From contig CM022668.1 of assembly GCA_012295275.1 (NCBI GenBank), forward strand, positions 6,324,001 to 6,388,000: a stretch of 64,000 nucleotides of DNA, written 5' to 3'. The position numbers were made by a program, and so were the translations under genes. Shown here in pieces: positions 1 to 33,792 of this stretch; positions within the stretch are counted from its first letter, which is position 1, and each line of letters begins with the position of its first letter. The DNA comes from Chrysomallon squamiferum. Its lineage: Eukaryota > Animalia > Mollusca. The notes under the pieces were generated by a model. It was not told the DNA's origin, ran no database searches, and worked only from the letters and a program-made list of their open reading frames with translations.

Positions 1-3000
1 TTTATTTCTCTTTGGTCGATGTTTTGTGTATTTCTTTCTTCTGTGTACAAATTCAGCTGACATTCTTAGTATTTCATCTTCTCCTTTTCTTAAGCTGCTG
101 AGTGATATTTTAGGTGACATTTTTAAAACATAACTTTGTTGAGCTACTTGACAATTTAGGTGACATAGTAAATGCTTTTGCTCTCTTCTTTTTAACATCT
201 CGTGATATTTCAGTTGACATTAAAAAAAATCCTTTTTCTCTCAGTAATTTTCTATTTCCTTTTTCTTGTAATTTTCTATTTCCTTTTTCTTGTAATTTTT
301 GGGCATCTAACTCTTTTCTTTTTCTCAGTCTTCTATGTGATATTTTAGGTGACATGTCAACTATTCTCTCTTCTTTCATTTTTATTCTTCCACGTGGTAT
401 TTTTGTTGACGTAAATTATTCCTTCTTTCCTTTGTGATCTTATAACTGACATCTTGTATAATTTTTATTATATTGTTCTTCTTGGTATTTCAATCTATGG
501 GAGGAATTCTCAGGTAATATTTTAACATCTTTCTATTACTTTTTACAATCTTCTATGTGACATGTTTTCTGATTTCATGACATCTTATTTGTCTAAGTAT
601 TTCAATCTGTGGGAGGACTTCTCTGGTAATATTTTAACATCTTGTTCATCTCGATATTTCAATCTGTGGGCTTCTCTGGTAATATTGTAACATCTCTCTC
701 TACTCTTTTTTCTGATATTCTTTGTGACATATTTTATTATTTTTTATCATCTTGTTCGTCTTGTTATTTCAATCTGTGGGAGGACTTCTCTGGTAATGTT
801 TTAACATCTTGTTCATCTCGGTATTTCAATCTGTGGGAGGACTTCTCTGGTAATATTTTAACATCTCTCTCTACTCTTTTTGTGATTTCCTATGTGATAT
901 GTTTTTGATTTTATGACATCTTGTTCATCTTGGTATTTCAATCTGTGGTAGGACTTCTCTGGTAATATTGTAACATCTCTCTCTACTCTTTTTTCTGATA
1001 TTCTTTGTGACATATTTTATTATTTTTTATCATCTTGTTCGTCTTGTTATTTCAATCTGTGGGAGGACTTCTCTGGTAATGTTTTAACATCTTGTTCATC
1101 TCGGTATTTCAATCTGTGGGAGGACTTCTCTGGTAATATTTTAACATCTCTCTCTACTCTTTTTGTGATTTCCTATGTGATATGTTTTTTGATTTTATGA
1201 CATCTTGTTCATCTTGGTATTTCAATCTGTGGTAGGACTTCTCTAGTAATATTTTAATATCTTACTCATCTCAGTATTACAATCTGTGGGAGGACCTCTA
1301 GTAATATTTTAATATCTTACTCATCTCAGTATTTCAATCTGTGGGAGGACTTCTCAGGTAATATTTTAACATCTTGTTCATCTCGGTATTTCAATCTGTG
1401 GGACAACTTCTCCGGTAATATTTCAACATCTTGTTCATCTAGATATTTCAATCTGTGGGAGGATTCTTTAGTAATATTTTAATATCTTGTTCATCTCAGT
1501 ATTTCAATACCTGGGAGAACTTGTCTGGTAATATTTCAACATCTTGTTCATCAATACCTGGGAGGACTTGTCTGGTAATATTTTGACATCTTGCTCTACT
1601 CTTTTTTTGTGGTCTTCTTTTAGGCGTAATTTGTGATTTTATCACATCTTGATTTCTCTCATTATTTCAATCTGTGCTCTTCTCTGGAAATATTTCAACA
1701 TCTCTATCTACTGTTTTTTCTGATTTTCTATATGATAAGTTTTGTGATTTTATAACATCTTCTCTCAGTATTTCAAGGTAGTAGCAGTAATCTTGTGATA
1801 TTTTAATATCTTGTTCATCTCTGTATTTCAATCTGTGGGACAACTTCTCTGGTAATATTTTAACATCTCACTCTACTGTTTTTTGTGATTTCCTATATGA
1901 TATATTTTTTGATTTTATGACATCTAGTTCATCTTGGTATTTCAATCTGTGATAGGACTTCTCTGGTAATATTTTAATATCTTACTCATCTCAGTATTTC
2001 AATCTGTGGGAGGATTCTTTCGTAATGTTTTAATATCTTGTTCATCTCAGTATTTCAATATCTGTGAGGACTTCTCTGGTAATATTTTGACATCTCACTC
2101 TAATTTGTTTTTTCTGGTCTTCTTTTAAGTGTAATTTGTGATTTTATCACATCTTGTTTGTCTCATTATTTCAATCTGTGCTCTTCTCTGGTAATATTTC
2201 AACATCTCTATCTACTGTTTTTTCTGATTTCCTATGTGATAAGTTTTGTGATTTTATAAGAGCTTCTGTCAGTATTTCGAGTTAGTAGGAGTAATCTTGT
2301 AATATTTTAATATCTTGCTCATCTCAGTATTTCAATCTGTGGGAGGACTTCTCTTGTAATATTTTATGATCTTGTTAATCTCGGTATTTCAATCTGTGGG
2401 AGGACTTCTCTGGTAATATTTTAACATCTCGCTATACTCTTTTTTCTGACCTTTTTTTCCACATATTTTTTGATTTCATCACATCTTACTTATCTCAGTA
2501 TTTCAATCTGTGGGATTCTCTGGTAATATTTTAACACCTCTCTCTACTCTTTATTCTGATTTCCTATATGATATATTTTTTGATTTTATGACATCTTGTT
2601 TATCTCAGTATTTCAATCAGTGGTAGGACTTCTCCGGTAATATTTTAATATCTTACTCATCTCGGTATTTCAATCTGTGGGAGGATTCTTTAGTAATGTT
2701 TTAATATCTTGTTCATCTCAGTATTTCAATATCTGTGAGGACTTCTCTGGTAATATTTTGACATCTCACTCTAATTTGTTTTTTCTGGTCTTCTTTTAAG
2801 TGTAATTTGTGATTTTATCACATCTTGTTTGTCTCATTATTTCAATCTGTGCTCTTCTCTGGTAATATTTCAACATCTCTATCTACTGTTTTTTCTGATT
2901 TCCTATGTGATAAGTTTTGTGATTTTATAAGAGCTTCTGTCAGTATTTCGAGTTAGTAGGAGTAATCTTGTAATATTTTAATATCTTGTTCATCTCAGTA

Positions 3001-6000
3001 TTTCAATCTGTGGGAGGACTTCTCTTGTAATATCTTATGATCTTGTTAATCTCGGTATTTCAATCTGTGGGAGGACTTCTCTGGTAATATTTTAACATCT
3101 CGCTATACTCTTTTTTCTGATATTTTTTTTTTCCACATATTTTTGATTTCATCACATCTTACTTATCTCAGTATTTCAATCTGTGGGATTCTCTGGTAAT
3201 ATTTTAACATCTCTCTCTACTCTTTATTCTGATTTCCTATATGATATATTTTTTGATTTTATGACATCTTGTTTATCTCAGTATTTCAATCAGTGGTAGG
3301 ACTTCTCCGGTAATATTTTAATATCTTACTAATCTCGGTATTTCAATCTGTTGCAGGACTTGTCTACTAATATTTTATCATCTTGTTCATCTCGATATTT
3401 CAATCTGTGGGACGACTTCTCTGGTAATATTTTAACATCTCGCTCTACTCTTTTTTGTGATTTCCTATGGGATATAGTTTTTCATTTTATGACATTTTGT
3501 TCATATCGGCATTTCAATCTGTGGGAGGATTTCTCTGGTAATATTTTAAATTCTTGTTCATCTCAGTATTTCAATCTGTGGGAAGACTTCTCAGGTAATA
3601 TTTTAATATCTTCTTCATCTCGTATTTCAATCAATGGGAGGACTTCTCTGGTAATATTTTAACATCTCGCTATACTCTTTTTTCTGATTTCCTATATGAT
3701 ATATTTTTTATTTCATGACATCTTGTTCATCTCGGTATTTCAATCTGTGGTAGGACTTATCTGGTAATATTTTAACATCTCGCTATACTCTTTTTTCTGA
3801 TTTCCTATATGATATATTTTTTGATTTCATGACATCTTGTTCATCTTGGTATTTCAATCTGTGGTAGGACTTCTCTGGTAATATTTTAATATCTTCTTCA
3901 TCTCGGTATTTCAATGTCTGGGAGGACTTCTCTGATAATATTTTAAAGTCTTCTTCATCTCAGTATTTCAGTCTGTGGGAGGACTTTTCTGATAATATTT
4001 TAACATCTTTTTCATCTTGATAAATCAATCTGTGGGAGGACTTGTTTACTAATATTTAAATATCTTCTTCATCTCAGTATTTCAATCTGTGGGAGAACTT
4101 CTCGGGTAATATTTCAACATCTTGTTCATCTAGGTATTTCAATCTGTGGGAGGATTCTTTACTAATATTTTAATATCTTGTTCATCTCAGTATTTCAATA
4201 TCTGGGAGGATTTCTCTGGTAATATTTTGACATCTCACTCTAATTTTTTTTTTTGTGGTCTTCTTTTAGGCGTAATTTGTGATTTTATCACATCTTGTTT
4301 CTCTCATTATTTCAATCTGTGGTCTACTCTGGTAATATTTCAACATCTCTATTGTTTTTTCTGATTTCCTATGTGATACGTTTTGTGATTTTATAAGAGC
4401 TTCTGTCGGTATTTCAAGTTGGTAGGAGTAATCTTGTAATATTTTAATATCTTGTTCATCTCAGTAGTTCAATCTGTGGGAGGACTTCTCTGGTAATATT
4501 TTATCATCTTGTTAATCTCAGTATTTCAATCTGTTGGAGGACTTCTCTAGTAATATTTTAACATCTCACTATACTCTTTTTAGTGACCTTTTTTTCCACA
4601 TATTTTTTTATTTCATCACATCTTGTTTATCTAAGTATTTCAACCTGTGAGATTCTCTGGTAATATTTTGACATCTCTGTCTACTCTTTTTTCAGATTTC
4701 CTATATGATATATTTTGGGATTTTATGACAACTTCTTCATCTCGGCATTTCAATCTGTGGTAGGACTTCTCTGGTAATATTTTAATATCTTGTTTATCTC
4801 AGTATTTCAATCTGTGGTAGGAATTCTCGGGTAATATTTTAATATCTTCTTCATCTCTGTATTTCAATCTGTGAGACGACTTCTCTGATAATATTTTAAC
4901 ATCTTTTTCATCTTGATAAATCAATCTGTGGGAGGACTTGTTTACTAATATTTAAATATCTTCTTCATCTCAGTATTTCAATCTGTGGGAGAACTTCTCT
5001 GGTAATATTTTAACATCTTGTTCATCTCAGTAAATCAATCCGTGGGGGGACTTCTCTACTAAAATTTTAACATCTAGTTCATCTCGGTATTTCAATCTGT
5101 GTGAGCACTTTTCTGGTAATACTTTAACATCTTGTTCATCTCAGTAAATCAATCCGTGGGGGGACTTCTCTACCAAAATTTTAACATCTCGTTCATCTAC
5201 TGTTTTTTTTTATGTGATTTTTTTTTTCTCAGTATTTTGTGACTTTTTATGACATCTTGTTTATCTCGGTATTTCAATCTATGGGAGGACTTCTCTGTTA
5301 ATATTTTAACATCTTGTTAATCTCTTTTATTTCAATTTCCTATGAGGATCTTTTTTTTATTTTAACATCTTGTTCATCTCGGTATTTCAATCTGTGGGAG
5401 GACTTCTCTGGTAATATTTTAACATCTCTCAAAAATGTTTTCTGATTTCCTATATGATAATTTTTTTGATTTTATGACATCTTGTTCATCTCAGTATTTC
5501 AATCTGTGGCAGGAAGAACATTTTGTTCTTGTGGGTAGTATTTTCAATCTGTGGGAGGAATTCTCGGGTAATTTTAATATCTTCTTCATCTCTGTATTTT
5601 AACAATGTTTTCATCATCTTGATTTCAATCTGTGGGAGGACTTCTTTGGTAATATTTTAACATCTTGTTCATCTGCATATTTCAATCTGTGGGAGGACTT
5701 TTCTAGTAATATTTTAATATCTTCTTCATCTCGGTGTTTCCATCTGTGGGAGGACTTCTCTGGTAATATTTTAATATCTTGTTAATCTCAGTATTTCAAG
5801 TGCATGGGACGACTTCTCTGGTAATATTTTAAAATTTCGCTCTAGTTTTTTTTTGTGACTCTTATTCACACATTTTTGTTTTTATGATATCTTGTTTGGT
5901 CTTCTTAGTATTTCAATCTCTTGGAGGATTTCTCTGGAAATATTATAACATCTTGTTCATCTCAGTATTTCAATTGTTCATCTGGGTATCTTCTTCATTC

Positions 6001-9000
6001 GTATTTCAATCTGTGGGAGGACTTCTCTGGTAATATTTTGACAAATCTCTCTACTGTTTTTGTGATTTTGTATGTGATAAGTTTAATTTTTTTGATTTTA
6101 TGACATCTTGTTCATCTCAGTATTTCAATATGTGGTAGAACTTCTCCAGTAATATTTTTTTAACATCTTGTTCATCTGAGTATTTCAATCTGTGGGAGGA
6201 CTTATCTAATAACATTTTAACATCTTGTCCATCTCGTTATTTCAATCTGTGGGAGGACTTCTGTGGTAATATTTTAATATCTTCTTCATCTCAGTATTTC
6301 AATCCTTGGGAGGACTTCTCTGGTAATATTTTAACATCTTGTTCATCTCAGTATTTCAATCTGTGGGAGGACTTTTCTAGTAATATTTAAACATCTTTTC
6401 ATCTCAGTATTTCAATCTGTCTTTTTTCTGGTAATATTTTTGACATTTTGTAGGTATTTTTATGATAGCTTATTTTAATATCTTGTTCATCTCAGTATTT
6501 CAATCTCTGGGACTTCTCTGGTAATATTTTGACATCTCTCTCTAATTTTTTTTTTTTTTTGTGATTTCTTTTTATGTGATATGTTTTTGATTTTATGACA
6601 TTTTGTTCGTCTCATTATTTCAATCTGTGGCAGGACTTCTATTTGCTAATATTTTAACATCTTGTTCATCCTATGTGGTATTTCAATTTGTGGGAGGACT
6701 TTCAGGTAATATTTTAACATCTTTTTCATTTCAGTATTTCAATCTGTGGCATGAATTCTCTAGTAATATTTTATCATCTTGTTATTCTTCTTGGTATTTC
6801 AGTCTGAGAGAGGATTTCTCTTGTAATATTTTAACATCTTGTTCTTCTGGGTATCTTAATCTGTGGGAGGACCTTTTTTCCTAATATTTTAACAATGTGT
6901 TCATCTCAGTATTTCAATCTGTGGGAGAACTTCTCTAGTAATATTTTAACATCTTGCTCTACTTTTTTTTTGGCGTTTTTTAACATATATTTTTATTTGA
7001 TCACATCTTGTTTATCTCGTATTTCAATGTGGGAGGACTTCTTGGGTAATATTTTAACATCTTGTTTATCTCGGTATTTCAATCTGTGGGAGGACTTCTC
7101 TGGTATTATTTTAATATCTTGTTAATCTCAGTATTTCAATGCATGGGAGGACTTCTCTAGTAATATTTTAAAATTTGTTCTCTAGTCTCAATTTTTGTGA
7201 CTTTTTAGTCACATATTTTGTGTTTTTTATGATAGCTTGTTTATCTTAGTATTTCAATCTCTCGGCTTCTCTGGAAATATTATAACATCTCTCTCTACTC
7301 TTTCTTGTAATTTCCTATGTGATATGTTTTTTGATTTTATGACATTTTCTTCGTCTTGGTATTTCAATGTGTGCTAGGACTTCTCTGGTAATATTTTAAC
7401 ATCTTTTTTCATTTCAGTATTTCAATCTCTGGCATGAATTCTCTAGTAATATTTTAATATGTTATTCATCTCGATATATATCAGTCTGTGGGAGGATTTC
7501 TCTTGTAATATTTTAATATCTTGTTCTTCTGGGTATCTTAATCTGTGGGAGGACTTCTCTCCTAATATTTTAACATCTTGTTCATCTCAGTATTTCAATC
7601 TGTGGGAGAACTTCTCTAATAATATTTTAACATCTCTCAAATTCTTTTTTGTGATTTTTTTTTAACATATTTTTTATTTGATCACATCTTGTTTATCTCA
7701 ATATGTGGGAGGACTTTTGGGTAATATTTTTAACATCTTGTTTATCTTGGTATTTCAATCTGTGGGAGGACTTCTCTGGTAATATTTTAATATCTTGTTA
7801 ATCTCAGTATTTCAGTGCATGGGACGACTTCTCTAGTAATATTTTAAAATTTCGCTCTAGTCTTTTTGTGACTTTTAGTCACATATTTTGTGTTTTTATG
7901 ATAGCTTGTTTATCTTAGTATTTCAATCTCGGCTTCTCTGGAAATATTATAACATCTCTCTCTACTCTTTCTTGTGATTTCCTATGTGATATGTTTTTTG
8001 ATTTTATGACATTTTCTTCGTCTTGGTATTTCAATGTGTGCTAGGACTTCTCTAGTAATATTTTAACATTTTGTTCATCTGGGTATTTCTCTCTGTGGGA
8101 GGACTTCTCTTGTAATATTTTGACAAATCTCTCTACTGTTTTTGTGATTTCGTATGTGATAAGTTTCGTGATTTTATGACATCTCGTTCATCTCAGTATT
8201 TCAATATGTGGCAGAACTTTTCCAGTAATATTTTAACATCTTGTTCATCTGAGTATTTCAATCTGTGGGAGGACTTATCTAGTAACATTTTAACATCTTG
8301 TCCATCTCGTTACTTCAATCTGTGGTAGGACTTCTGTGGTAATATTTTAATATCTTGTTCATCTGAGTATTTCAATCTGTCAGAGGACTTTTCTAGTAAC
8401 ATTTTAACATCTGGCTCTAGTCTTTTTTGTGACCTTTTTTTTGACATTTTGTTTCTTTATGATAGCTTGTTCATCTCAGTATTTCAATCTCTGGACTTCT
8501 CTGGTAATATTTTATCTCTCTCTGCTCTTTTTTGTGATTTCCTATATGATATGTTTTTCGATTTTATGACATCTTGTTCGTCTCAGTGTTTCAATCTGTG
8601 GCAGGACTTCTCTGGTAATATTTTAACATCTTACTCATCTCGGTACTTCAATCTGTGGGAGGACTTCTCTGCTAATATTTTAACATCTTGTTCATCTCAG
8701 TATTTCAATGTGTGGGAGGACTTCTCAGGTAAAATTTTAACATCTTGTTCATCTCGGTATTTCAATCTGTGGGAGGACTTCTTTAGTAATATTTTAATAT
8801 CTTGTTCATCTCAGTATTTCAATCTCTGGCATGATTTCTTTAGTACTATTTTAATATGTTATTCATCTTGGTATTTCAATCTGTGGAAGGACTTCTCTTG
8901 TAATATTTTAATATCTTCTTCTTCTCAGTATTTCAATCCTTGGGAGGACTTCTCTGGTAATATTTTAAGATCTTGTTAATCTCAGTATTTCAATCTCTGG

Positions 9001-12000
9001 GAGGACTTCTCTGCTAATATTTTAACAACGTGTTCATTTCAGTATTTCAATCTCTGGCATGAATTCTGTTTTAATATTTTAATAAGTTATTCATCTCGGT
9101 ATTTTAATCTGTACGAGGATTCTCTTGTAATATTTTAATATCTTGTTCTGGGTATTTCAATCTGTGGGAGGACTTCTCTGATAATATTTTGACATCTCTC
9201 TATACTGTTTTTGTGATTTCCTATGTGATAAGTTTTGTGATTTTATGACACTTTTTTGTCTTTGTATTTCAATCTGTTGAAGAACTTCTCTGGTAATATT
9301 TTAACATGTCGTTCATCTGAGTATTTCAATCTGTGGGATGACTTCTCTGGTAATATTTTCACATCTCTCTCTACTGTTTTTGCGATTTCCTATGTGATAA
9401 GTTTCATGATTTTATGACATCTTGTTCGTCTCAGTATTTCAATATGTGGCAGGTCTTCTCCAGTAGTATTTCAACATCTTGTTCATCTCGGTATTTCAAT
9501 CTGTGGGAGGACTTATCTAGTAACATTTTGATATCTTCTTCATCTCAGTATTTCAATCTATGGGAGGACTTCTTTAGTAATATTTTGATATCTTGTTCAT
9601 CTCAGTATTTCAATCTCTGGCATGATTTCTTTAGTAATATTTTAATATGTTATTCATCTCGGTACTTCAATCTGTGGGAGGACTTCTATAGTAATATTTT
9701 AATATCTTCTTCATCTCAGTATTTCAATCCTTGGCAGGACTTCTCTGGTCATATTTTAACATCTTGTTCATCTGAGTATTTCAATCTGTGGGAGGACTTA
9801 TCTAGTAACATTTTAACATCTTGTCCATCTCGTTACTTCAATCTGTGGTAGGACTTCTCTGGTAATATTTTAATATCTTCTTCATCTCAGTATTTCAATC
9901 CTTGGCAGGACTTCTCTGGTAATATTTTAACATCTTGTTCATCTCAGTATTTCAATCTGTCGGAGGAGGACTTCTCTGTAATATTTTAATACCTTGTTAA
10001 TCTCTGTATTTCAATCTGTGGGAGGACTTCTCTGCTAATATTTTAACAACATGTTTATCTCGGTATTTGAACCTGTGGGAGGACTTCTCTGCTAATATTT
10101 TAACGTGTTCATCTCGGTATTTCAAGCTGTGGGATGACTTCTCTAGTAGTTTTTTAACATCTTTTTCATCTGGGTATTTCAATCTGTGGGAGGACTTCTC
10201 TCGTAATATTTTAATACCTTGTTAATCTCTGTATTTCAATCTGTGGGAGGACTTCTCTGGTAATATTTTAATATCTTCTTCATCTCAGTATTTCAATCCT
10301 TGGCAGGACTTCTCTGGTAATATTTTAACATCTTGTTCATCTCAGTATTTCAATCTGTCGGAGGACTTCTCTCGTAATATTTTAATACCTTGTTAATCTC
10401 TGTATTTCAATCTGTGGGAGGACTTCTCTGCTAATATTTTAACAATATGTTTATCTCGGTATTTGAATCTGTGGGAGGACTTCTCTGCTAATATTTTAAC
10501 AATGTGTTCATCTCGGTATTTCAATCTGTGGGAGGACTTCTCTCGTAATATTTTAATACCTTGTTAATCTCTGTATTTCAATCTGTGGGAGGACTTCTCT
10601 GGTAATATTTTGACATCTCTCTCTACTGTTTTTGTTATATTCTATGTGATAAGTTTTGTGATTTTATGACATCTTGTTCATCTCAGTATTTCAATCTGTG
10701 GCAGAAGAACATCTTGTTCTTCTGGGTATTTCAATCTGTGGGAGGACTTCTCTCCCAGTACTTTAACAATGTGTTCATCTCAGTATTTCAATCTGTGGCA
10801 GGACTTCTCCGGTAATATTTTAACATCTTGTTCATCTGCATATTTCAATCTGTCGGAGGACTTTTCTAGTAATATTTTAATATCTTCTTCATCTCGGTGT
10901 TTCCATCTGTGGGAGGACTTCTCTGGTAATATTTTAATAGCTTGTTAATCTCAGTATTTCAGTGCATGGGACGACTTCTCTAGTAATATTTTAAAATTTC
11001 GCTCTAGTCTTTTTTGTGACTCTTATTCACACATTTTGTGTTTTTATGATAGCTTGTTTATCTTAGTATTTCAATCTCTTGGCTTCTCTGGAAATATTAT
11101 AACATCTCTCTCTACTCTTTCTTGTTCATCTGGGTATTTCTCTCTGTGGGAGGACTTCTCTGGTAATATTTTGACAAATCTCTCTACTGTTTTTGTGATT
11201 TCGTATGTGATAAGTTTCGTGATTTTATGACATCTCGTTCATCTCAGTATTTCAATATGTGGCAGAACTTCTCCAGTAATATTTTAACATCTTGTTCATC
11301 TGAGTATTTCAATCTGTGGGAGGACTTATCTAATAACATTTTAACATCTTGTCCATCTCGTTACTTCAATCTGTGGTAGGACTTCTGTGGTAATATTTTA
11401 ATATCTTCTTCATCTCGGTATTTCAATCCTTGGGAGGACTTCTGTGGTAATATTTTAACATCTTGTTCATCTCAGTATTTCAATCTGTCAGAGGACTTTT
11501 CTAGTAATATTTTAACATCTGGCTCTAGTCTTTTCTCTGACCTTTTTTTGACATTTTGTTTGTTTATGATAGCTTGTTTCTCTCAGTATTTCAATCTCTG
11601 GACTTCTCTGGTAATATTTTATCTCTCTCTACTCTTTTTTTGTGATTTCCTATGTGATATGTTTTTTGATTTTATGACATTTTGTTCGTCTCATTATTTC
11701 AATCTGTGGCAGGACTTCTCTGCTAATATTTTAACATCTTGTTCATCTCGGTATTTCAATGTGTGGGAGGACTTCTCAGGTAATATTTTAACATCTTTTT
11801 CATTTCAGTATTTCAATCTGTGGCATGAATTCCCTAGTAATATTTTAATATGTTATTCTTCTTGGTATTTCAGTCTGAGAGAGGATTTCTCTTGTAATAT
11901 TTTAATATCTTGTTCTTCTGGGTATCTTAATCTGTGGGAGGACTTCTCTCCTAATATTTTAACAATGTGTTCATCTCAGTATTTCAATCTGTCGGAGAAC

Positions 12001-15000
12001 TTCTCTAGTAATATTTTAACATCTCGCTCTACTTTCTTTTCTGGCGTTTTTTTAACATATATTTTTATTTGATCACATCTTGTTTATCTCAATATGTGGG
12101 AGGACTTCTTGGGTAATATTTTAACATCTTGTTTATCTCGGTATTTCAATCTGTGGGAGGACTTCTCTGGTATTATTTTAATATCTTGTTAATCTCAGTA
12201 TTTCAATGCATGGGAGGACTTCTCTAGTAATATTTTAAAATTTCGCTCTAGTCTTTTTTGTGACTTTTAGTCACATATTTTGTGTTTTTATGATAGCTTG
12301 TTTATCTTAGTATTTCAATCTCTCGGCTTCTCTGGAAATATTATAACATCTCTCTCTACTCTTTCTTGTAATTTCCTATGTGATATGTTTTTTGATTTTA
12401 TGACATTTTCTTCGTCTTGGTATTTCAATGTGTGCTAGGACTTCTCAGGTAATATTTTAACATCTTTTTCATTTCAGTATTTCAATCTCTGGCATGAATT
12501 CCCTAGTAATATTTTAATATGTTATTCATCTCGATATATCAGTCTGTGCGAGGATTTCTCTTGTAATATTTTAATATCTTGTTCTTCTGGGTATCTTAAT
12601 CTGTGGGAGGACTTCTCTCCTAATATTTTAACAATGTGTTCATCTCAGTATTTCAATCTGTCGGAGAACTTCTCTAATAATATTTTAACATCTCGCTCTA
12701 CTCTTTTTTCTGGCGTTTTTTTAACATATATTTTTATTTGATCACATCTTGTTTATCTCAATATCTGGGAGGACTTCTTGGGTAATATTTTAACATCTTG
12801 TTTATCTTGGTATTTCAATCTGTGGGAGGACTTCTCTGGTAATATTTTAATATCTTGTTAATCTCAGTATTTCAGTGCATGGGACGACTTCTCTAGTAAT
12901 ATTTTAAAATTTCGCTCTAGTCTTTTTTGTGACTTTTAGTCACATATTTTGTGTTTTTATGATAGCTTGTTTATCTTAGTATTTCAATCTCTCGGCTTCT
13001 CTGGAAATATTATAACATCTCTCTCTACTCTTTCTTGTGATTTCCTATGTGATATGTTTTTTGATTTTATGACATTTTCTTCGTCTTGGTATTTCAATGT
13101 GTGCTAGGACTTCTCTAGTAATATTTTAACATTTTGTTCATCTGGGTATTTCTCTCTGTGGGAGGACTTCTCTTGTAATATTTTGACAAATCTCTCTACT
13201 GTTTTTGTGATTTCGTATGTGATAAGTTTCGTGATTTTATGACATCTCGTTCATCTCAGTATTTCAATATGTGGCAGAACTTTTCCAGTAATATTTTAAC
13301 ATCTTGTTCATCTGAGTATTTCAATCTGTGGGAGGACTTATCTAGTAACATTTTAACATCTTGTCCATCTCGTTACTTCAATCTGTGGTAGGACTTCTCT
13401 GCTAATATTTTAACAACGTGTTCATTTCAGTATTTCAATCTCTGGCATGAATTCTGTTTTAATATTTTAATAAGTTATTCATCTCGGTATTTTAATCTGT
13501 ATGAGGATTCTCTTGTAATATTTTAATATCTTGTTCTGGGTATTTCAATCTGTGGGAGGACTTCTCTGATAATATTTTGACATCTCTCTATACTGTTTTT
13601 GTGATTTCCTATGTGATAAGTTTTGTGATTTTATGACACTTTTTTGTCTTTGTATTTCAATCTGTTGAAGAACTTCTCTGGTAATATTTTAACATGTCGT
13701 TCATCTGAGTATTTCAATCTGTGGGATGACTTCTCTGGTAATATTTTCACATCTCTCTCTACTGTTTTTGCGATTTCCTATGTGATAAGTTTCATGATTT
13801 TATGACATCTTGTTCGTCTCAGTATTTCAATATGTGGCAGGTCTTCTCCAGTAGTATTTCAACATCTTGTTCATCTCAGTATTTCAATCTGTGGGAGGAC
13901 TTATCTAGTAACATTTTGATATCTTCTTCATCTCAGTATTTCAATCTATGGGAGGACTTCTTTAGTAATATTTTGATATCTTGTTCATCTCAGTATTTCA
14001 ATCTCTGGCATGATTTCTTTAGTAATATTTTAATATGTTATTCATCTCGGTACTTCAATCTGTGGGAGGACTTCTATAGTAATATTTTAATATCTTCTTC
14101 ATCTCAGTATTTCAATCCTTGGCAGGACTTCTCTGGTCATATTTTAACATCTTGTTCATCTGAGTATTTCAATCTGTGGGAGGACTTATCTAGTAACATT
14201 TTAACATCTTGTCCATCTCGTTACTTCAATCTGTGGTAGGACTTCTCTGGTAATATTTTAATATCTTCTTCATCTCAGTATTTCAATCCTTGGCAGGACT
14301 TCTCTGGTAATATTTTAACATCTTGTTCATCTCAGTATTTCAATCTGTCGGAGGACTTCTCTCGTAATATTTTAATACCTTGTTAATCTCTGTATTTCAA
14401 TCTGTGGGAGGACTTCTCTGCTAATATTTTAACAACATGTTTATCTCGGTATTTGAACCTGTGGGAGGACTTCTCTGCTAATATTTTAACGTGTTCATCT
14501 CGGTATTTCAAGCTGTGGGATGACTTCTCTAGTAGTTTTTTAACATCTTTTTCATCTGGGTATTTCAATCTGTGGGAGGACTTCTCTCGTAATATTTTAA
14601 TACCTTGTTAATCTCTGTATTTCAATCTGTGGGAGGACTTCTCTGGTAATATTTTAATATCTTCTTCATCTCAGTATTTCAATCCTTGGCAGGACTTCTC
14701 TGGTAATATTTTAACATCTTGTTCATCTCAGTATTTCAATCTGTCGGAGGACTTCTCTCGTAATATTTTAATACCTTGTTAATCTCTGTATTTCAATCTG
14801 TGGGAGGACTTCTCTGCTAATATTTTAACAATATGTTTATCTCGGTATTTGAATCTGTGGGAGGACTTCTCTGCTAATATTTTAACAATGTGTTCATCTC
14901 GGTATTTCAATCTGTGGGAGGACTTCTCTCGTAATATTTTAATACCTTGTTAATCTCTGTATTTCAATCTGTGGGAGGACTTCTCTGGTAATATTTTGAC

Positions 15001-15750
15001 ATCTCTCTCTACTGTTTTTGTTATATTCTATGTGATAAGTTTTGTGATTTTATGACATCTTGTTCGTCTCAGTATTTCAATATGTGGCAGGACTTCTCCG
15101 GTAATATTTTAACATCTTGTTCATCTGAGTATTTCAATCTGTGGGAGGACTTATCTAGTAACATTTTAACATCTTGTCCATCTCGTTACTTCAATCTGTG
15201 GTAGGACTTCTCTGATAATATTTTAATATCTTCTTCATCTCGGTATTTCAATCCTTGGGAGGACTTCTCTAGTAATATTTTAACATCTCGCTCTAGTCTT
15301 TTTTGTGACCTTTTTTTGAGATATTTTGTGTTTTTATGATAGCTTGTTTATCTCAGTATTTCAATCTCTTGATTTCTCTGTTAATATTTTAATATCTCTC
15401 TCTACTGTTTTTTGTGATTTCCTATGTGATATATTTTTTGATTTTATGACATCTTGTTCATCTCGGTATTTCAATCTGTGGGAGGACTTCTCTGGAAATA
15501 TTTTAACATCTTGTTCATCTCAGTATTTGAATCTGTGGATGGACTTCTCTGGTGATCTATCTAAAATCTGTCTGTCTCTTTCGTTCAGTTCTGTAGATGA
15601 TTTTTTTGATGCACTCATCAAATTATTGCTATTCTTAGCAGCATTCATTCTGATGAGGTTTTCTTTCTGTGTATCTATCTCCAATAAATGTTTCTCTCTG
15701 AGATCTTTTTTAAACATTTGCACTTTGCTATATAATTACAAAGAACTTCA
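1..15750 (-). pseudogene. Degenerate, expanded duplicate of the terminal exon of the upstream gene (head + repeats + SPK-rich tail)
   Basis: Head 15520-15723 (FKKDLREKHLLEIDTQKENLIRMNAAKNSNNL) matches the exon start (YKKDLEETHLLEMDIGERENFTRIHAVKNSNNL). Tail 1-420 (MSPKISHRRLRK) matches 15788-16200 (MSPKVSHRRPRK). Many in-frame TGA/TAA stops and indels lie between. Confidence 0.75.
480..15540. repeat. ~15-kb satellite of 57-bp units (about 260 by length) derived from the coding repeat, with nested higher-order duplications
   Basis: Consensus aacatcttgttcatctc(a/g)gtatttcaatctgtgggaggacttctctggtaatatttt recurs throughout, interleaved with a second 57-bp variant (ctctactcttttttgtgatttcctatgtgatatg...). 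Near-identical ORFs at 9414/13802 and 9997/14383 show a ~4.39-kb offset duplication. Confidence 0.97.
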
Positions 15751-16146
15751 ACATCTAAGCAGTATCTGTTTCTGTACTGACAGTTCTTTATTTATGTCTC
15801 TTTGATCGATGTTTTCTGTGTTTCTTTCTACTGTGTACAAATTCAGGTGACATTCTTAGTATTTCATCTTCTCTTTTTCTTAAGCTGCTGAGTGATATTT
15901 TGGGCGATATTTTAAAAATGCATTCTTCTGCCTTTGTTGAGCTGCATGATAATATGGGTGATAGTATAGTAAATCTTTCTGATCTCTTTTTTGATCTTTT
16001 ATGCAACTTTTTGGGAGACTTTCTAACGTCTTGCACTTCTTTCTTTCTTAATTTTCCAATTGATATCTCAGGTGACATAATAATTCCTTTTTCTCTCATT
16101 AGTGATTTTCTTGGTCTTCTATGTGATACTTTAGGTGACATGTGAA

Positions 16147-17574
16147 CTATTCTCTCTTCTTTTGTTCTGATTCTTCCATGTGGTATTTTTGGTGACTTGT
16201 CTTGTAACTTTTATCATCTTGTTCATCTTGGTATTTCAATCTGTGGGAGGACTTCTCTGGTAATATTTTAACATCTCGATCTATTCGTTTTTGTGATCTT
16301 CTATGTGACATATCTTGTGATATTTTATCACCTTGTTCTTCTTGATGTTTCAGTCTGTGGGAGGACTTCTCCGGTAATATTTTAACATCTTGCTCCAATC
16401 TTTTTTGTGATCTTGTATGTGACATATTTTGTGATATTTTATCATCTTGTTCTTCTTGGTGTTTCAATCTGTGGGAGGACTTCTCTGGTAATATTTTAAC
16501 ATCTTGCTCCAATCTTTTTTGTGATCTTGTATGTGACATATTTTGTGATATTTTATCATCTTGTTCTTCTTGGTGTTTCAATCTGTGGGAGGACTTCTCT
16601 GGTAATATTTTAACATCTTGTTCATCACGGTATTTCAATCTGTGGGAGGACTTCTCTACTAATATTTTATCATCTTGTTCATCTCGGTATTTCAATCTGT
16701 GGGAGGACTTCTCTGGTAATATTTTAACATCTTGTTCATCTCGGTATTTCAATCTGTGGGAGGACTTCTCTGGTAATATTTTAACATCTTGTTCATATCT
16801 GTATTTAAATCTGTGGGAGGACTTCTCTGGTAATATTTTAACATCTTGTTCATCTCGGTATTTCAATCTGTGGGAGGACTTCTCTGGTAATACTTTAACA
16901 TCTTGTTCATCTCTGTATTTAAATCTGTGGGAGGACTTCTCTGGTAATATTTTAACATCTTGTTCATCTCGGTATTTCAATCTGTGGGAGGACTTCTCTG
17001 GTAATATTTTAACATCTTGTTCATCTCGGTATTTCAATCTGTGGGAGGACTTCTCTGGTAATATTTTAACATCTTGTTCATCTCGATATTTCAATCTGTG
17101 GGAGGACTTCTCTGGTAATACTTTAACATCTTGTTCATCACAGTATTTCAATCTGTGGGAGGACTTCTCTGGTAATATTTTAACCTCTTGTTCATCTCGG
17201 TATTTCAATCTGTGGGAGGACTTCTCTGGTAATATTTTAACATCTTGCTCTACTCTTTTTCGTGATTTTCTATGTGACGTGTTTTGTGATTTTTTGATAA
17301 CTTTTTCTTCTTGGTGTTTCACTCTGTGGATTTTTTTGTGTGATCTTTCTGAAATTTGTCTTTCTCTTTTGTTCTGTTCTGAAGATGATCTTTTTGAAAC
17401 ACGTATCAAATTATTGCTGTTCTTAACAGCATGAATTCTGGTGAAGTTTTCTCGCTCTCCTATGTCCATCTCCAATAAATGTGTCTCTTCTAGATCCTTT
17501 TTATATAATTTCCGAATAATCTTAATCAAATTATCATCGTCTGGGCACTGGTTTAAAACTTCATTTACCATGAC
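16147..17574 (-). CDS. Terminal exon of the membrane-protein gene, carrying intact 19-aa repeats (DVKILPEKSSHRLKYRDEQ and variant DDKISQNMSHTRSQKRLEQ)
   Basis: 480-aa ORF in the track; acceptor tttcattcag|GTC at 17574; the 57-bp units have no stop on this strand. Confidence 0.8.
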   Translation of the reverse strand, partial: VMVNEVLNQCPDDDNLIKIIRKLYKKDLEETHLLEMDIGERENFTRIHAVKNSNNLIRVSKRSSSEQNKRERQISERSHKKIHRVKHQEEKVIKKSQNTSHRKSRKRVEQDVKILPEKSSHRLKYRDEQEVKILPEKSSHRLKYCDEQDVKVLPEKSSHRLKYRDEQDVKILPEKSSHRLKYRDEQDVKILPEKSSHRLKYRDEQDVKILPEKSSHRFKYRDEQDVKVLPEKSSHRLKYRDEQDVKILPEKSSHRFKYRYEQDVKILPEKSSHRLKYRDEQDVKILPEKSSHRLKYRDEQDDKILVEKSSHRLKYRDEQDVKILPEKSSHRLKHQEEQDDKISQNMSHTRSQKRLEQDVKILPEKSSHRLKHQEEQDDKISQNMSHTRSQKRLEQDVKILPEKSSHRLKHQEEQGDKISQDMSHRRSQKRIDRDVKILPEKSSHRLKYQDEQDDKSYKTSHQKYHMEESEQKKRE

Positions 17575-18999
17575 CTGAATGAAATACATTTTTTATCAAC
17601 AGTTTAAAAATATTTTACAAGTAATTCAGTTTTCTGATTAATTAATAGGAAAATAGATATTATTCACATATTATAACATAGAAGCAATTTCTTCGACTAC
17701 CTTTTGTGAGAAGAATTCCTGTTAGCTTTTCTGAGATGGAATAAAACATTTTTATATTGATAAACTGTAATTTCTGCATAAAATATTAGTTTCTTTTATT
17801 TCTCCATGTTTCTGTCTATAGCAGCAGGAATAAAAAGAGATAACAGGTAAAAAACAGTAATTTTAAATGTTACTTACTTCATATGGTACTTTTGATAAAT
17901 CCAGTGTAAGATCCTTAAATGGAGAGACCTGAAAAATAAACAGAATAATGCTTTACCAAAGAGCCATATAATTTATTTTATATAAGTTCTGGTTTTGAAC
18001 ACCATAAGTATAAAATAGGAAATGAAGAATTATAATGCTGCTATGATAAGAAAAATTATGTTTCAACAAGGAATAACAGACACTGTCTGCAGGGTCATTC
18101 TGGTTGTATGGTTTGACATCAGAAGGCTACAGAAATATTAAAAATAAAACTGATTAAGTAATTGTTTAACATATGCTGTTTGACTGCTACATTTTTATTT
18201 AAGGAATGTCTTTTTGATAATGATAATAACAATAACAACAAAAACAATAATAATAATAATAATAATGATCATAATAACAATAATAACAACAACAAGAATA
18301 ATAATAATAGTGATAATAATGATGATGATGATGATGATGATAAGAAGAAAAAGAAGAAAAAATAATAATAGCAATAATAACAACAATAACAGTATATCAA
18401 ATTCTAATTTAGACATGACAAGATTGTTTGGTCAGAAGTGATTCAACACACAGCCTTAAAACTCTGTCCCACTGCATTTATTTTATACATGTCACTGTCT
18501 TAAGATATTTAAACAATTAATGCTCACCGCTTCAACAATTTCTGATCTTTCGACAGGATCTTTGAGTTCCTTTTCTGGCAATGTATCATGGATCTTAACA
18601 TCATCATTTTCACAGATTTGTTCTGGCTTTGTATCATTTGGCATAATGTTTTTCTCTTGTAACTCCTGTTTGAATGTTTGTACATCATCATATAATTTGT
18701 GAATACTTATAATCAAAGGATCATCGCTTGGTAAGCGGTTCAAAACTTCATTTACCATGGACTGAAATAAATATATTTTTTATCAATGTATTCTATTGGT
18801 TTCTTATAAATTTATTTGTTTCTGTTAAACACACTGGAATACAAACAGATAAAAATAAACACACTAATTTGAAATGTTACTTACTTCATATTGTAACTGG
18901 GATGAATCCAAAGTATCATCTTTCCTTTGAGACACCTGAAAAATAAAACAAAATAACTTTACCACATCTCAGCTAAGAATATTTTTAAGTGTATGCATG

Positions 19000-19034
<35 letters not shown>

Positions 19035-20245
19035 CTCCATATGTCTGTGCTTACACAAAGAATAGAAAGAGAAGCAAAATTTTATCTATTATGACTGATG
19101 AATTATAATCTTAACCTTAACTCTATCATAAAATTAGAGTCTGTTATTTTCATTATTTTAACCTTTTATTAATTTTTATCAAGATCTGAAATGTATCATT
19201 TGTGGATTTTTAAAAAAGTTAAATTCATACACACTCAACTAGAATAGCAAAAATAGAAAAATTAATGAACTGAAGAATCATAACATACTGATAGATTATA
19301 CAACAATTATGTTAAACATAGTAAAATAATATGGTTACTCACCTCTGTCTCAGACACATTCACATCTTCATTGTTAATGATATCCAAGTTCTTGCCAGGA
19401 TCTTTGTGCTGATCATCTGTTTTGCTATCATGCTGATTCAGAAAAGGTACATTTTTCAGATTAATTATCCTCTCCTTCCTCCTTCTTCCTAGAGCTGAGG
19501 TATTTTTGTTATAAATATGCTGGAGAAATCTTCTGGGAGAGAACCATTTTATCCAATTTTCTTTTTCCTGGTAGAGAACAAAATTGAAAAATTGCAGTTA
19601 TGTTAATTCTAATTAAATCTGAAAGAAATCAGTCCATATAGTATAAAAAAGAAAATATTTAATTTAGAAATTTCCTGGCAATAATATATTAAGAAAGTAT
19701 TTTAATTTCAAATAATTTTAATTTACAGATTCTTTTAATTCTATGACAGCAATATGCAGAAAGTAAAATTAAGAATAAATGCATTTTTCTGTATTCACCT
19801 CCAACTTGTGTTTAATTTGTTCTATATTTATAATAAAAAATCAGTGTTAATAAATCTCACAAAAATTCATTTACCACAGTGTGAAAGAATTATTTTGTTA
19901 ATAAATCAGAAAGTACTGTAGTTACACAGTATTATCACTGATTTTTGTTATATCACAGTTACAATTTTTTTTGTTTTCAACTTCATTCCATAACTGTTAA
20001 TTTTCTGAGATAGAATGAAATAAAATATGCTACACAGAGGTTTCTACCTTAAATGTTAGTGTCTTGTATTTTTTTATTTGTTCCAGTCTATACCAGTTGG
20101 AATACAAACAGATGAAAAATAAATACACTAATTTTAAATGTTACTTACTTCATCTGGCTTTGATGACAAATCCAGTTGAAAATCTTCAAAAAGCTGAAAA
20201 ATGAAACAAGATCTCAATGAAGATAATTTTAAGTATATACATTAA

Positions 20246-20292
<47 letters not shown>

Positions 20293-21735
20293 ACTATAAT
20301 ATATAAACTATAATGCTTCATAAATCAAAAAAATATTTTTAATAAAATAGTCAACCATATTACTTGCAAAGACTAATTGTTGCTAAACATAATTATAATG
20401 GTTCTTGAGCAAAACTTACTGTAATTTGCAGACTATATTAATATTTAAATTCATAATCAGATGAAAATATTAGTAGTAATAATAACAAATCAGGAAAATT
20501 TAATGCAAAGTAAACTATACAGATGGGAAAAAATTAGAAGCAAGAAACAACCTGTGACAATGGAAATGAGATGTTAATATTAAGATATTTATTTGTCAAA
20601 AAGTAATTCATAAATATTTTAAACTCATAGAATAAAAGAAGTGAGTGAATTTTAAACTGCTCCAGCTGATTTATATTTACATGGGACTAATAACTTTATT
20701 TTAAACACTAACAAATAAAACTGTCATATTATTGACCGTCGATTTCATAGACCTTGCTTTTCCAAATCTGAAAAAATCACAACTTGACCCCATTTTCCAC
20801 TGGAAACCTTATTTAAAGCTACTATTATGTTATTTTGAGTACCACTATACAGTCACAGCAACCATTTTCAACCCATTTTCCATCAAGGTAAGAGAAAATT
20901 TGACAACAGCCCCATAACTATTCTAACCTAACAAACTTCAGCCAGTCTAGCCTACATTTTTGTACTGTACATTTTTCTTTATATATACTGTCCGCATGAA
21001 ATTTCTAGACTTTTGCAATAATTGGACTGGTGCTACCCCCTATTAGCCCATGAAATTAAAGGTCAACGGTATATAAACTATTTCAAAACAGATAGATATC
21101 AGTGATAAAATTATATCATTACTTACATTGATAACAACTGCTTCTAATGGATGAGACCTCTGCAAAAATTAAAGAATCACAACAAATAATCAAAAATCTT
21201 TCACCACCTTATTAATTTACAAATGTAAGAAAGTCTTCCCTCTAAAAAAGTTTCATTTTTATTGTATTAAATGGAAATATTTTCTGAAATGTGTTAATTT
21301 ATAATTTGAATTAAAACACAGTGAACAAATCATACCTTATGGTGAAAGTCAAGAAGAACAAATTTACATATGAATCGGTTTTTTTTCACCCATTATGTTA
21401 CAAACTATATAGATGCAGTAAGATATTTTTTTCAAAATGTTATAAAAATAAAAACAGCAGCAAAGTTATTTATAATCAGTGAATAATTAAAACAAGCTGG
21501 AAAGATAAAAATAATTTAAACAGTTAATAATAATTACTCACCCCTCTTTCTAGATCATTCCTGTCATGTGCAGTTGGATGAGAAGTCTGTGGAAATATTC
21601 AAAACAAAAAATTAAAATAATTGTTTAATGTACTCTATTTGACCACTATATTTATGTTAAGGAAATATCATTCTTTTATGTATGATATATTAACAACAAC
21701 AACAACAATAATAATAATAGTTATAGTAGTGGTAG

Positions 21736-21775
<40 letters not shown>

Positions 21776-24700
21776 TGTAATAGTAATAGTAATAGTAGAA
21801 GTAGTAGTAATAATAATAATAAAAATTACATTATATCAAATCCCTATTTAAACATGATAAAGTTGATTGGTCTCTGTGACGGACACACCTGCTGACCTCT
21901 CAGAAAGCGTGCCTGTCGTAGACGTGCTTCACAACAGCTTGCTCTGATTAGCACATTAATTTTTTTCAGTTTCAGATTGGTCTCAGTGTACAAGGGATTT
22001 AACAAACAGCTTAAAACATTTCACCTTCTGCATCTATTTTAAGCATATGAAAATTTTAATAATGCAAAATTTATGTTAAACAGCAAATAATAGTTACTCA
22101 CCTCTGTCTCAGACTCACTCTGATCATTTAACAAAAGAGGTACTGCCTACAGAAACATCACAAATAAAACATATCAGCTGGTGTACTTGACTATATTTTT
22201 ATTAAAATAAATATAATAATAATAAGAAGAATAGTAATAGCACTTAGTCATAATAATAATAATAATAATAATAATAGCATTAACAACAATGAAACTGACT
22301 GGTCTCTAAGCAGAATGGATTCAAAAAATAGTCTCAAGTATCTAATCTCCTCCATTTACTTTATACACATGAACATCTCAATAAGGCCAAATTAAAAATT
22401 CTCACTCACTTCTTCACTGTTAAGTATTTCCCTCTTTTTGCCTGGATCTTTCGGCCGCCTGTTTGATTTATTATCATTCTTACTCAGAAATTGTTCTATG
22501 CCTTCTTCTAAGTCAGTCATTCTTTTCTTCTTCTTTCTTCTTAGAGCTGAGGTATTTCTATTATAGAGATGCTTGAAAAACTTTTTTGGAGAAAAACTTT
22601 TATCGGTCTTCTTTATCACCAGCTAGAGAATAAAATTAAGAAAAACTGCTATAAGTTAATTGTTATCAAATGTGATAGAAATCAGTCCATATTATTTAAA
22701 AAAAGAGAAAGGACTTTTTATTTTTCATTTTAATATTTATTTAAATTTATTTAATTTTTGAAAGTTTCTGACAATTACACATTCAGAAAGTTTTTAAATT
22801 TCAAATACTTTTTGGTAACAAATCTTTCACTCTCTCATTTCTTGTTTTTATTTTTCATTCTTAATACATCAGTACATATACATTAAATTAACTAGATTAT
22901 TAACTGTATTGCTGGCTTAAAAAATAAAAATGTTTTTAGGGCAGTCTAGCACCCACTAACAATTAATATTTTCAAATAAACATGTTTTATGTAAAATTTT
23001 ATCCACAAAATAATGTAATTTTTACTTTTCATATTAATTTTGTCATAGGTATCTACTGTATTTATCTATATGTCTATCTAAGGAAAATTATTTATTTTAC
23101 GTCTATTTATTTACCTTCCAGACTAAAATTATAATAATAACAAAAATCAGAACAAAATGGCAAGCGACAATTATTATCATAAGCATCTGCAATAGGTCTT
23201 TATCTTCTTCCTGAAAATAAAGGTTATGATCAGCTTTAGACTTATTTTAATGATTTAAGATACATTTAGAGTGAGTTATAAGTTTATTAAGGGTCAGGTT
23301 AAGTAAAATTAAATAATCCCTTTCATTAAATGAAATGACTAAGCATTTCCATGTTGACACTTTACTTCTTTGTCAATTTATTTTTATAAATTTTGTCATT
23401 AGTTTGTAATTATTAATTTCAAATTCCATGTTCTTGTGCATATGAGCTTACTAACTCAAGGTAGAAAATGAAATGAAAAAATTAAACTTTAACTACATTA
23501 AAATAACAACTAATTGTAGTATAACATGTGATAAAGAGTGCAGGACACCAAAATATCCATCTTCAATACATCTGCATTTCCTCCTCATAGGTGTAAGTAA
23601 GCTGAAAATTAAATAATCAATAAAAGAAAATGTCATATGTGAAAAACATACACAGACCAAAAATCCAACTGAAAGGAACAATTTTGATACCCAATGGAGA
23701 AGCACTTATTATTTTAAGCTTCTCCAGCTTCTATACTTGTCTACTGTCTTCTGTGTGCTAATGAATTCCTTGAAAACTGAAACAACCATGACTGTTTATG
23801 GTAAATGATGCATTCAGTTTCTCAACCACCTTTATCAGGGTTAACTTGGCCATTTGTAAATGTTATTATTTGGTAGCATGACACATATTTTATAGTCATA
23901 AACCCACATAATTCCAGAATATCACTTTTTTTTTAACTTGGTTTCATTCCATTTACTCTGACCTTCTGCAGTAATGAAGCTTGTAGCATTGTTCAATAAA
24001 TGCTTTCTACATCAAACAGAATTCAATACAAGCATTTCACAGCACCACCAAGGCAATTAACAAGGTGGAAAAAACTTCCAAGATGAGAAAGTGATCATTT
24101 TCCTCTGAGGTGAGAAGCAACTATACAGACCGTTGCTTAACTGCTTCAGGCAGTTCACTGAATTCTTTGAGTGACTTCGTTAAAATTTTATGACATGCAT
24201 TATTTACCCTATATTTAACAGTACACAGTAAATGCATTACCATTATTCAAAGTCTACAAAACATAGCCACTTAGGAAAGTATAATGCTGACATGTCTTCA
24301 TAGGGTATGAAAATTTGGAGATGATCTTTATTTTTTTTCCTCATTTTTTTTTTCTTGAATTGCTATATCACCAGGGATTTCTTTCAAAAAACTATATAAA
24401 GCAACTTTTTTGTGACAAGCATTATACCATCAAGACAACAAATGTTTATGACTAAATCATGATTTAAGAACAAGCTGTCATGATATACAGATAATAGCTA
24501 AACGAAGATTCTTGAAATAAATAGGGCTGTGAGAGGTGTTTACTGGTATTCATTAAAAGTAAATATATCCCTTCTTTACACATGATTTTGAATTAATTTA
24601 CATCTGTCTATCTATTTATATGTCTATCTAGAACAACAATAATAATAAACAAATAATATATTCTTTTCTTTTTGAATTAAAAGGTAGAAAAAATGATAAA

Positions 24701-30145: not shown

Positions 30146-33749
<3,604 letters not shown>

Positions 33750-33792
33750 AATTACTAAATGAAACTGTATTTTGGTTTCTGTCGATTAAGAG

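What the first reader, a model, noticed from the sequence alone, without database searches (positions are those of the whole stretch)
1..17574. A 15-kb satellite that appears to have been born from a protein-coding repeat
Seen: the terminal exon has the layout head - ~19 x 57 bp - SPK-rich tail (17574 to ~15790). The same layout follows immediately (head 15520-15750, tail 1-420), but the repeat section holds about 260 units full of stops and indels. Inference: the exon was duplicated, lost coding constraint and amplified, so the coding parent and its satellite offspring sit side by side. More copies may continue beyond base 1.
Basis: partly seen in the sequence, partly recalled or inferred. 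Interest (0 to 1): 0.8.

Follow-up and report, generated by a model that had tools for sequence, protein, structure and literature searches.

The report
Satellite grown from a coding repeat
In a snail, a 15-kb non-coding tandem repeat sits directly behind a gene whose last exon codes for the same 57-base unit; it likely grew from a dead sister copy of that exon and is likely still read as the gene's long untranslated tail, which would be a rare chance to see a satellite beside its protein-coding source.

Summary
Confirmed, with corrections. Exon 15 of a 15-exon, likely membrane-protein gene (minus strand, 27267-15788; gastropod) holds 19 intact 57-bp units. Behind its stop lie a 5'-truncated head, 268 units (163 with stops, 72 frameshifted) and a tail. 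The window's frame break between repeats and SPK tail is absent from one RNA contig. Coding origin is well supported: the tail is seven old 19-residue units homologous only in frame, the array's A consensus equals the exon unit at 56 of 57 bases, and decay is neutral from the root. Copy 2 is a sister of today's exon, not its daughter (head and B units 16-23% different). Read contigs from two studies confirm the junction and array variants and show further heads and tails outside the window. A spliced-RNA run spans stop to array edge, so the array is likely 3' UTR. Unexplained: 207 flank codons carry no stop (P about 0.01 at the array's rate); the array likely mutates 2-3 times faster. The mechanism (unequal crossing-over) is ordinary; the source is unusual. 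The scan noted analogues in other genomes (LINE-ORF and exon-derived arrays), not this sequence. Genome-wide spread and orthologues untested.

The parts
22410..27267 (-). Exons 1-6 of the host gene (27267-27079, 26639-26512, 26292-26014, 25007-24901, 23210-23115, 22622-22410): predicted signal peptide, Cys-rich ectodomain, acidic stalk, one transmembrane helix (exon 5)
17878..22146 (-). Exons 7-14, predicted cytoplasmic part, built from internal exon duplications (10, 12, 14 alike; 6 and 11; 13 and 15)
   Evidence: sequence, model and alignments; exon 14 to 15 splice seen in RNA run X6
17296..17574 (-). Head of terminal exon 15
   Evidence: acceptor at 17574 used in RNA (joint 17572-17876, GT..AG, 2 contigs)
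16213..17295 (-). Coding repeat: 19 units of 57 bp (15 A, 4 B), no stop, no indel
16209..16212 (-). Four-base A run where the window's frame breaks; one base longer in an RNA-run contig
   Evidence: X6 record 24
15788..16208 (-). SPK-rich tail: seven diverged 19-residue units, stop at 15790-15788 overlapping an AATAAA
15736..15787 (-). 52-bp non-coding spacer between the stop and the truncated head of copy 2
   Evidence: frameshifting gaps among paralogous contigs fall here
15505..15735 (-). Head of copy 2: 5'-truncated, no acceptor, 71 open codons, 58% protein identity to head 1
466..15504 (-). Non-coding array of 268 units (211 A, 57 B; 205 distinct), with higher-order duplications
13390..15065 (.). 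1.68-kb (29-unit) block repeated at 9002-10679; two CpG-type transitions and two small indels apart
1..465 (-). Tail of copy 2: 96 + 40 open codons with one frameshift near 121; runs off the window just before the place of the stop

Best explanation
The 15-kb array is made of the same 57-base unit that the gene's last exon encodes, and it likely arose when a sister copy of that exon lost its splice site, stopped coding and was amplified by unequal crossing-over inside what is likely now the gene's untranslated tail. Steps: (1) shown: an old 19-residue repeat exists in the exon, as seven diverged tail units plus 19 homogeneous A/B units in one frame. (2) Shown: a second head-repeat-tail block follows the stop, truncated at its 5' end. 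Inferred: it came from a paralogous terminal exon that kept coding for some time, and was joined behind exon 15 by a deletion or unequal crossover within a tandem gene family. (3) Shown: the units changed without avoiding stops, on inner and outer branches alike, star-like around the exon's A unit. Inferred: a burst of amplification after function was lost, then block duplications of 5-90 units' spacing. (4) Shown in one study: spliced RNA of the gene continues across the stop to the edge of the array, and array-type variants are in the same RNA run. Inferred: the weak poly(A) site at the stop is read through, so the array is 3' UTR. (5) Inferred: the array mutates about 2-3 times faster than its flanks, so it is younger than its 9% divergence suggests. 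The array itself most likely has no function.
For: Tail units align to A/B peptides only in the open frame: score 137 against 50.6 +/- 11.0, 0 of 500 shuffles; other frames 139 and 203 of 500; SP motifs at residues 5, 24, 45, 64, 83, 101, 120. Array A consensus = exon A at 56 of 57 bases, the difference being a CpG to TpG change that makes TGA; CpG decay runs one way, so the coding state is ancestral (established knowledge). Array B consensus is also open. Stops are 10 of 134 changes on inner and 16 of 195 on outer array branches, neutral expectation 7.1%; exon branches 0 stops (155 distinct A units, duplicates and units with more than 6 deleted bases dropped, CpG site apart). Distance to A: mean 4.95, variance 4.97 over 55 sites. 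6 of 10 variant motifs printed from read contigs occur in the window's array, including single-place ones at 1404, 2014, 4154, 4822. X6 joins across intron 14 and spans 15523-15893 with 0 differences at depth 25, like the tail contigs at 23-33; the 1404 variant is in X6 at depth 13. Further heads and tails: four non-copy-1 tail contigs at 15820 in X1, and a second truncated head with the same spacer.
Against: The flanks of copy 2 hold 0 stops in 207 codons; simulation at the array's substitution rates gives about 4 stops and P(0) = 0.009-0.012, at half rate 0.11, at one third 0.23-0.24, so step 5 is needed and is untested. Head 1 does not align significantly to the units (159 of 500 shuffles). 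dN/dS between the flanks is 0.63-1.10, so constraint there is seen mainly as open frames. All RNA evidence is contigs of one run of one study, with no strand and no single molecule across the array; variants could come from other blocks. 4 of 10 variant motifs are not in the window, so units exist elsewhere or are allelic. No genome-wide search and no orthologue were available. 112 of 268 units have an exact twin, so part of the length could be assembly duplication.
Confidence: 0.7

Rival explanations
1. Two-way exchange: the array and the exon trade units by gene conversion, and the exon's run of 12 near-identical A units was re-seeded from the array.
For: A is the same in both copies although head and B differ by 16-23%; three array units (5420, 1142, 859) are identical to exon A; exon A units are young (mean 1.7 differences from A) and only mildly constrained (5 synonymous, 9 non-synonymous distinct changes).
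Against: Only 3 of 77 intact array units equal the consensus, so a seed from the array would rarely be the exact consensus. It does not replace the coding origin, since the tail units are older relatives in frame.
Confidence: 0.15
2. Captured satellite: an older non-coding satellite was inserted into the exon and its ancestors.
For: Array units are far more diverse than exon units (83% against 93% pairwise). Variants not in the window exist in reads. Genome-wide spread untested.
Against: In-frame diverged relatives make up the tail; both consensus units are open but for one CpG change; head and tail are duplicated with the array; no match elsewhere in the other 46 kb of the window.
Confidence: 0.05
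3. Copy 2's head and tail still matter (coded through a splice that skips the array, or renewed by conversion from working paralogues), so the array is old and the flanks are kept.
For: 0 stops in 207 codons; gaps among paralogous heads and tails in read contigs sum to multiples of 3, while gaps of 2 and 4 fall in the spacer; spliced paralogous transcripts exist.
Against: Head 2 has no acceptor in phase; the transcribed strand of the array is purine-rich with no pyrimidine tract before tail 2 (sequence); tail 2 has a frameshift near 121 that DNA contigs appear to share (10 differences, no gap, over the same interval; matched by count only).
Confidence: 0.12
4. The array is largely an assembly expansion.
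For: A 1.68-kb twin at 99.7% and several shorter twins; the window has at least one likely homopolymer error.
Against: 205 distinct units, 173 clusters at 98%; the twins differ by CpG-type transitions; array-specific variants are in short-read contigs of two studies. At most about a quarter of the length could be removed this way.
Confidence: 0.04

Closest known systems
Satellites seeded from other sequence classes: rDNA intergenic spacer and transposons (PMC5615363, passages; PMC6947457, section 3 part 1); limpet PcH-Sat from a Nin-SINE (PMC11121367, search listing only)
   Same: A local tandem seed grows into a long non-coding array, by unequal crossing-over as those reviews propose, with higher-order units.
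   Different: The seed here is a host protein's coding repeat, still in use 230 bp from the array's edge across head 2 plus the tail; the passages read name only transposons and rDNA spacer as seeds.
Chironomus Balbiani ring genes BR1, BR2.1, BR2.2, BR6 (PMC4192438, passages)
   Same: Long hierarchical tandem repeats inside a transcribed gene, built from coding units.
   Different: BR arrays are coding; this array is non-coding and lies behind the stop.
Read-through from histone genes into satellite DNA in newt and Xenopus oocytes (as cited in PMC11602149, passages)
   Same: A gene's transcript runs on into a neighbouring satellite.
   Different: There the satellite is not described as derived from the gene; here it is homologous to the gene's own coding exon. 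Tissue and strand are unknown here.
Schistosoma SmPoMuc family (PMC2576457, passages)
   Same: Lineage-specific family with tandem repeats, truncated copies, pseudogenes and recombination among them.
   Different: SmPoMuc repeats are about 1-20 genomic units per gene; no decayed array of hundreds of units appears in the passages read.
Accelerated mutation of centromeric alpha-satellite (bioRxiv 10.1101/2020.09.08.285395, passages)
   Same: A 2.2- to 3.8-fold higher rate would account for the decayed array between near-intact flanks.
   Different: Measured at a megabase human centromere, where the rise extends into flanks; here the array is 15 kb and the rate is only inferred.

Membership tests
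Satellite DNA | Head-to-tail tandem monomers in a long array | tested here: met
   268 units over 15,038 bp; by unit length (57 bp) it is a large minisatellite under the 10-99 bp cut-off used in PMC4192438
Satellite DNA | Non-coding, neutrally evolving units | tested here: met
   163 of 268 with stops; stop share of changes 7.5-8.2% against 7.1% expected
Satellite DNA | Higher-order structure from block amplification | tested here: met
   runs of 3-29 units repeated at 96-99.7%
Satellite DNA | High genome-wide abundance, spread to other loci | not testable with these tools
   no own genome held; genome index did not complete
Satellite DNA | Heterochromatic state or location | not testable with these tools
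   only indirect: 89 of 211 A units read TG and 17 CA at the unit's CpG, which suggests germline methylation
Coding tandem repeat (exon 15) | Open frame, unit length a multiple of 3, spliced into mRNA | tested here: met
   19 of 19 units intact; exon 14-15 joint in RNA; protein not shown
Transposon-derived tandem repeat | Monomer or flanks homologous to a transposable element | tested here: inconclusive
   no repeat library available; flanks are spliced host exons; Pfam gave no transposon family for the exon peptides
Type I membrane protein (host gene) | Signal peptide, ectodomain, one transmembrane helix, cytoplasmic tail | tested here: inconclusive
LRR-cap (LRRNT/LRRCT) ectodomain, recalled resemblance | Profile match of the Cys pattern in exons 1-2 | tested here: not met
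   no LRR family at E up to 1 for exons 1-3

The most novel reading that the evidence does not exclude
A gene has turned its own coding repeat into a hypermutable satellite that it still transcribes as a 15-kb or longer, possibly multi-block, 3' UTR, and this array feeds back on the gene, as a donor of units to the coding exon by conversion or as a source of small RNAs matching the gene family's coding repeat. It would be a satellite caught at birth from a host protein, with two internal clocks (flanks and parent exon) that measure how fast arrays mutate.
Probability: 0.15. Interest if true: 0.8.

Novelty: new variant of a known kind. Interest (0 to 1): 0.52.

Why it matters
The source of most satellites is unknown, and the named sources in the reviews read are transposons and rDNA spacer. 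Here the source, an intermediate (diverged in-frame units) and the product lie within 18 kb, and the genetic code gives the direction of change. The near-intact flanks give an internal clock, so whether tandem arrays mutate faster than unique DNA can be tested at a small, non-centromeric locus. It also shows how assemblies and annotation can hide such genes: one base splits the protein in this window.

Tried and rejected
Own genome not held. Genome index answered busy six times, so nothing beyond base 1, no genome-wide count and no orthologue was seen. Protein searches found no relative: exon 15 among proteins of 261-832 aa, exon 3 among longer proteins and among 1.84 billion representatives, Atlas for both; these blanks show neither absence nor novelty, and only single exons were used. 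Pfam hits on exon 15 (PTHB1_pf, Phage_TTP_2 and others) had 0 stretches passing on their own and are taken as repeat artefacts. Tail and unit motifs: 0 matches in JGI metagenome contigs. Run X8 (another organism, share 0.08) laid one 42-nt piece on 15505-16250 and is uninformative; X10 covered only part of the head at depth 3-7. Summed contig depths at unit positions are tens of times the unique depth in X1, X2 and X6 but are not a copy number and were not used as one. Joints of 657-743 nt are artefacts of unit similarity. A tree of 57-bp units is star-like and was used only to class changes, not to root the family. The 362-codon plus-strand frame over the exon repeat is the antisense shadow of the repeat and was rejected as a gene. 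Literature: nine searches showed no title or abstract start describing a satellite born from a host protein's coding repeat; the library lacks most subscription papers, so this is not proof. No supplements were read.
Full report
Setting. The window is animal DNA, about 30% G+C, rich in microsatellites. An innexin at 44390-45760 (Pfam Innexin, E 8e-82) has its best hit in Gigantopelta aegis (52% identity), then Haliotis species, so the host is a gastropod; earlier scan notes on this genome also say snail. No whole genome is held and the genome index did not complete, so all outside evidence comes from contigs of public short-read runs.

One period-57 array spans 459-17247. A core motif matches 172 times on the minus strand and never in 100 shuffles. 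The exon part (17295-16213) is 19 units of exactly 57 nt, 15 of type A and 4 of type B, 61% alike; the second part (15504-466) is 268 units, 211 A and 57 B. No exon unit has a stop; 163 of 268 array units do, 72 are frameshifted, 77 are intact and the longest intact run is 3. Head and tail are duplicated at 77% and 74%.

The host gene. Fifteen GT-AG exons from 27267 give 1052 open codons: a hydrophobic start, a Cys-rich part, an acidic stalk, one hydrophobic helix (exon 5) and a long predicted cytoplasmic part made of duplicated exons. This topology is inferred. RNA run X6 joins exon 14 to exon 15 across the 303-nt intron in 2 contigs, and no contig of it lies inside that intron. In the window the repeat frame stops at 16147 and the SPK tail is in another frame; the one contig that spans the place, from X6, has one more base in the four-base run at 16209-16212, which would give about 1,170 residues. 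Error and allele cannot be told apart. No relative of exon 3 or exon 15 was found, and Pfam gave no hit I accept. The function of the protein is not shown; the likeliest reading is a fast-evolving, lineage-specific surface protein with a disordered, basic, phosphorylatable tail (inference from composition).

Direction of origin. The tail has SP motifs at residues 5, 24, 45, 64, 83, 101 and 120, and aligns to the A/B peptides in its open frame only (137 against 50.6 +/- 11.0; 0 of 500 shuffles; the other two frames 139 and 203 of 500); tail 2 does too (0 of 500); head 1 does not (159 of 500). So the unit is the youngest member of an old in-frame repeat of this exon. The array's A consensus equals the exon's A at 56 of 57 bases; the exception is CGA to TGA at a CpG, a change that runs one way in methylated DNA (established knowledge). 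Array A units lie a mean of 4.95 changes (variance 4.97) from A over the other 55 sites, a star. On a tree of 155 distinct A units (12 exon, 143 array; duplicates and units with more than 6 deleted bases dropped), stops are 10 of 134 changes on inner and 16 of 195 on outer array branches, against 7.1% expected; exon branches have none. The array has therefore been non-coding throughout its diversification, from a coding-state ancestor.

Sister, not daughter. Head 2 begins 22 codons into the head, 52 bp behind the stop, without an acceptor. It keeps an 18-nt segment found in exon 13 and missing from exon 15. Head and tail pieces are 58%, 71% and 80% identical as protein, dN/dS 0.85, 0.63 and 1.10. 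The array's B consensus is open and differs from each exon B at 10-13 positions of 63. Read contigs show relatives outside the window: in X1 four other tail contigs at 15820, one matching tail 2 by its count of 10 differences; a head 94% like head 1; a second truncated head behind the same spacer; and spliced paralogous exons in RNA. I infer a tandem gene family in which a paralogue's terminal exon was joined behind exon 15 and the block was copied at least once more. Where these copies lie is not shown; alleles may account for some.

Assembly. The tail-spacer-head junction is spanned by single contigs in X1, X2 (two studies) and X6. Of 10 variant motifs printed from contigs, 6 occur in the window's array and 4 do not; those at single places (1404, 2014, 4822) have X1 depths of 65-82, like unique contigs at 55-73, while the one at 4154 has 142. 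The array has 205 distinct units; 112 of 268 have an exact twin. The longest twin (1.68 kb) differs by two CpG-type transitions and two small indels: a recent duplication, or two haplotypes joined. At most about a quarter of the length is in doubt.

Transcription. X6 spans 15523-15893 with no difference at depth 25, close to its tail contigs (23-33), although an AATAAA overlaps the stop. The variant unique to 1404 is in X6 at depth 13. The simplest reading is read-through, which makes the array a 3' UTR. Limits: one run, one study, contigs only, no strand, no molecule across the array.

What is unexplained. The flanks of copy 2 have 0 stops in 207 codons and one frameshift. Simulated at the array's substitution rates they should have about 4 (P(0) 0.009-0.012); at half the rate P(0) is 0.11, at one third 0.23-0.24. 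The exon's A unit has also hardly moved from the array's root. Both fit an array that mutates 2-3 times faster than its surroundings, as estimated for human centromeric satellite (2.2- to 3.8-fold; bioRxiv 10.1101/2020.09.08.285395, passages). Conversion from working paralogues, or unit exchange with the exon, are the rivals; three array units are identical to exon A.

Comparison and verdict. Reviews name transposons and rDNA spacer as seeds of satellites (PMC5615363 passages; PMC6947457 outline and section 3 part 1). Balbiani ring genes have coding arrays (PMC4192438 passages); histone read-through into satellite is known (PMC11602149 passages); SmPoMuc shows repeat genes with pseudogenes (PMC2576457 passages). 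Nine searches listed no case of a satellite from a host coding repeat; the library is incomplete and no supplements were read. Earlier scan notes report arrays from LINE coding sequence and from exons in other genomes, unchecked by me, and no look-alike of this sequence. The feature is real, the process is ordinary, the source and the read-through are unusual: a new variant of a known kind, interest 0.52.

Noticed in passing
window 44390-45760 and 49550-50953, minus strand: Two tandem single-exon innexin genes, 52 substitutions in 1309 aligned bases, inside a duplicated block that also carries a 40-bp minisatellite (46213-46533, 51318-52393).
   Followed up: partly
window 63010-63726, plus strand: Frame with a CD225 (interferon-induced transmembrane) domain, E 3e-09, preceded by an open acidic frame at 62321-63022 in another phase.
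   Followed up: partly
window 30119-37284 plus strand; 36180-41863 minus strand: Exon pieces that read like fibrinogen-related proteins with a PAN/apple-like start (labels recalled, not searched); two related starts at 30119-30505 (+) and 41468-41863 (-) suggest an inverted pair.
   Followed up: no
window 48415-48772 and 43456-43573: 18/36/90-bp repeats with open frames on both strands.
   Followed up: no
window 466-15504: G and C bases of the unit are changed in 16-19% of copies, A and T in 4-6%; C to G is unusually common (7%) (copies not de-duplicated).
   Followed up: partly
window 232-303: A 24-bp in-frame triplication inside tail 2: a new micro-array starting in the flank.
   Followed up: no
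window 23570-23600, minus strand: A good acceptor followed by a short acidic frame between exons 4 and 5; not needed for the open model, perhaps an alternative or dead exon.
   Followed up: no
read contigs laid on 17300-18205: Several spliced paralogous transcripts with exon-12/13/14-like pieces not in the window: an uncatalogued gene family.
   Followed up: partly
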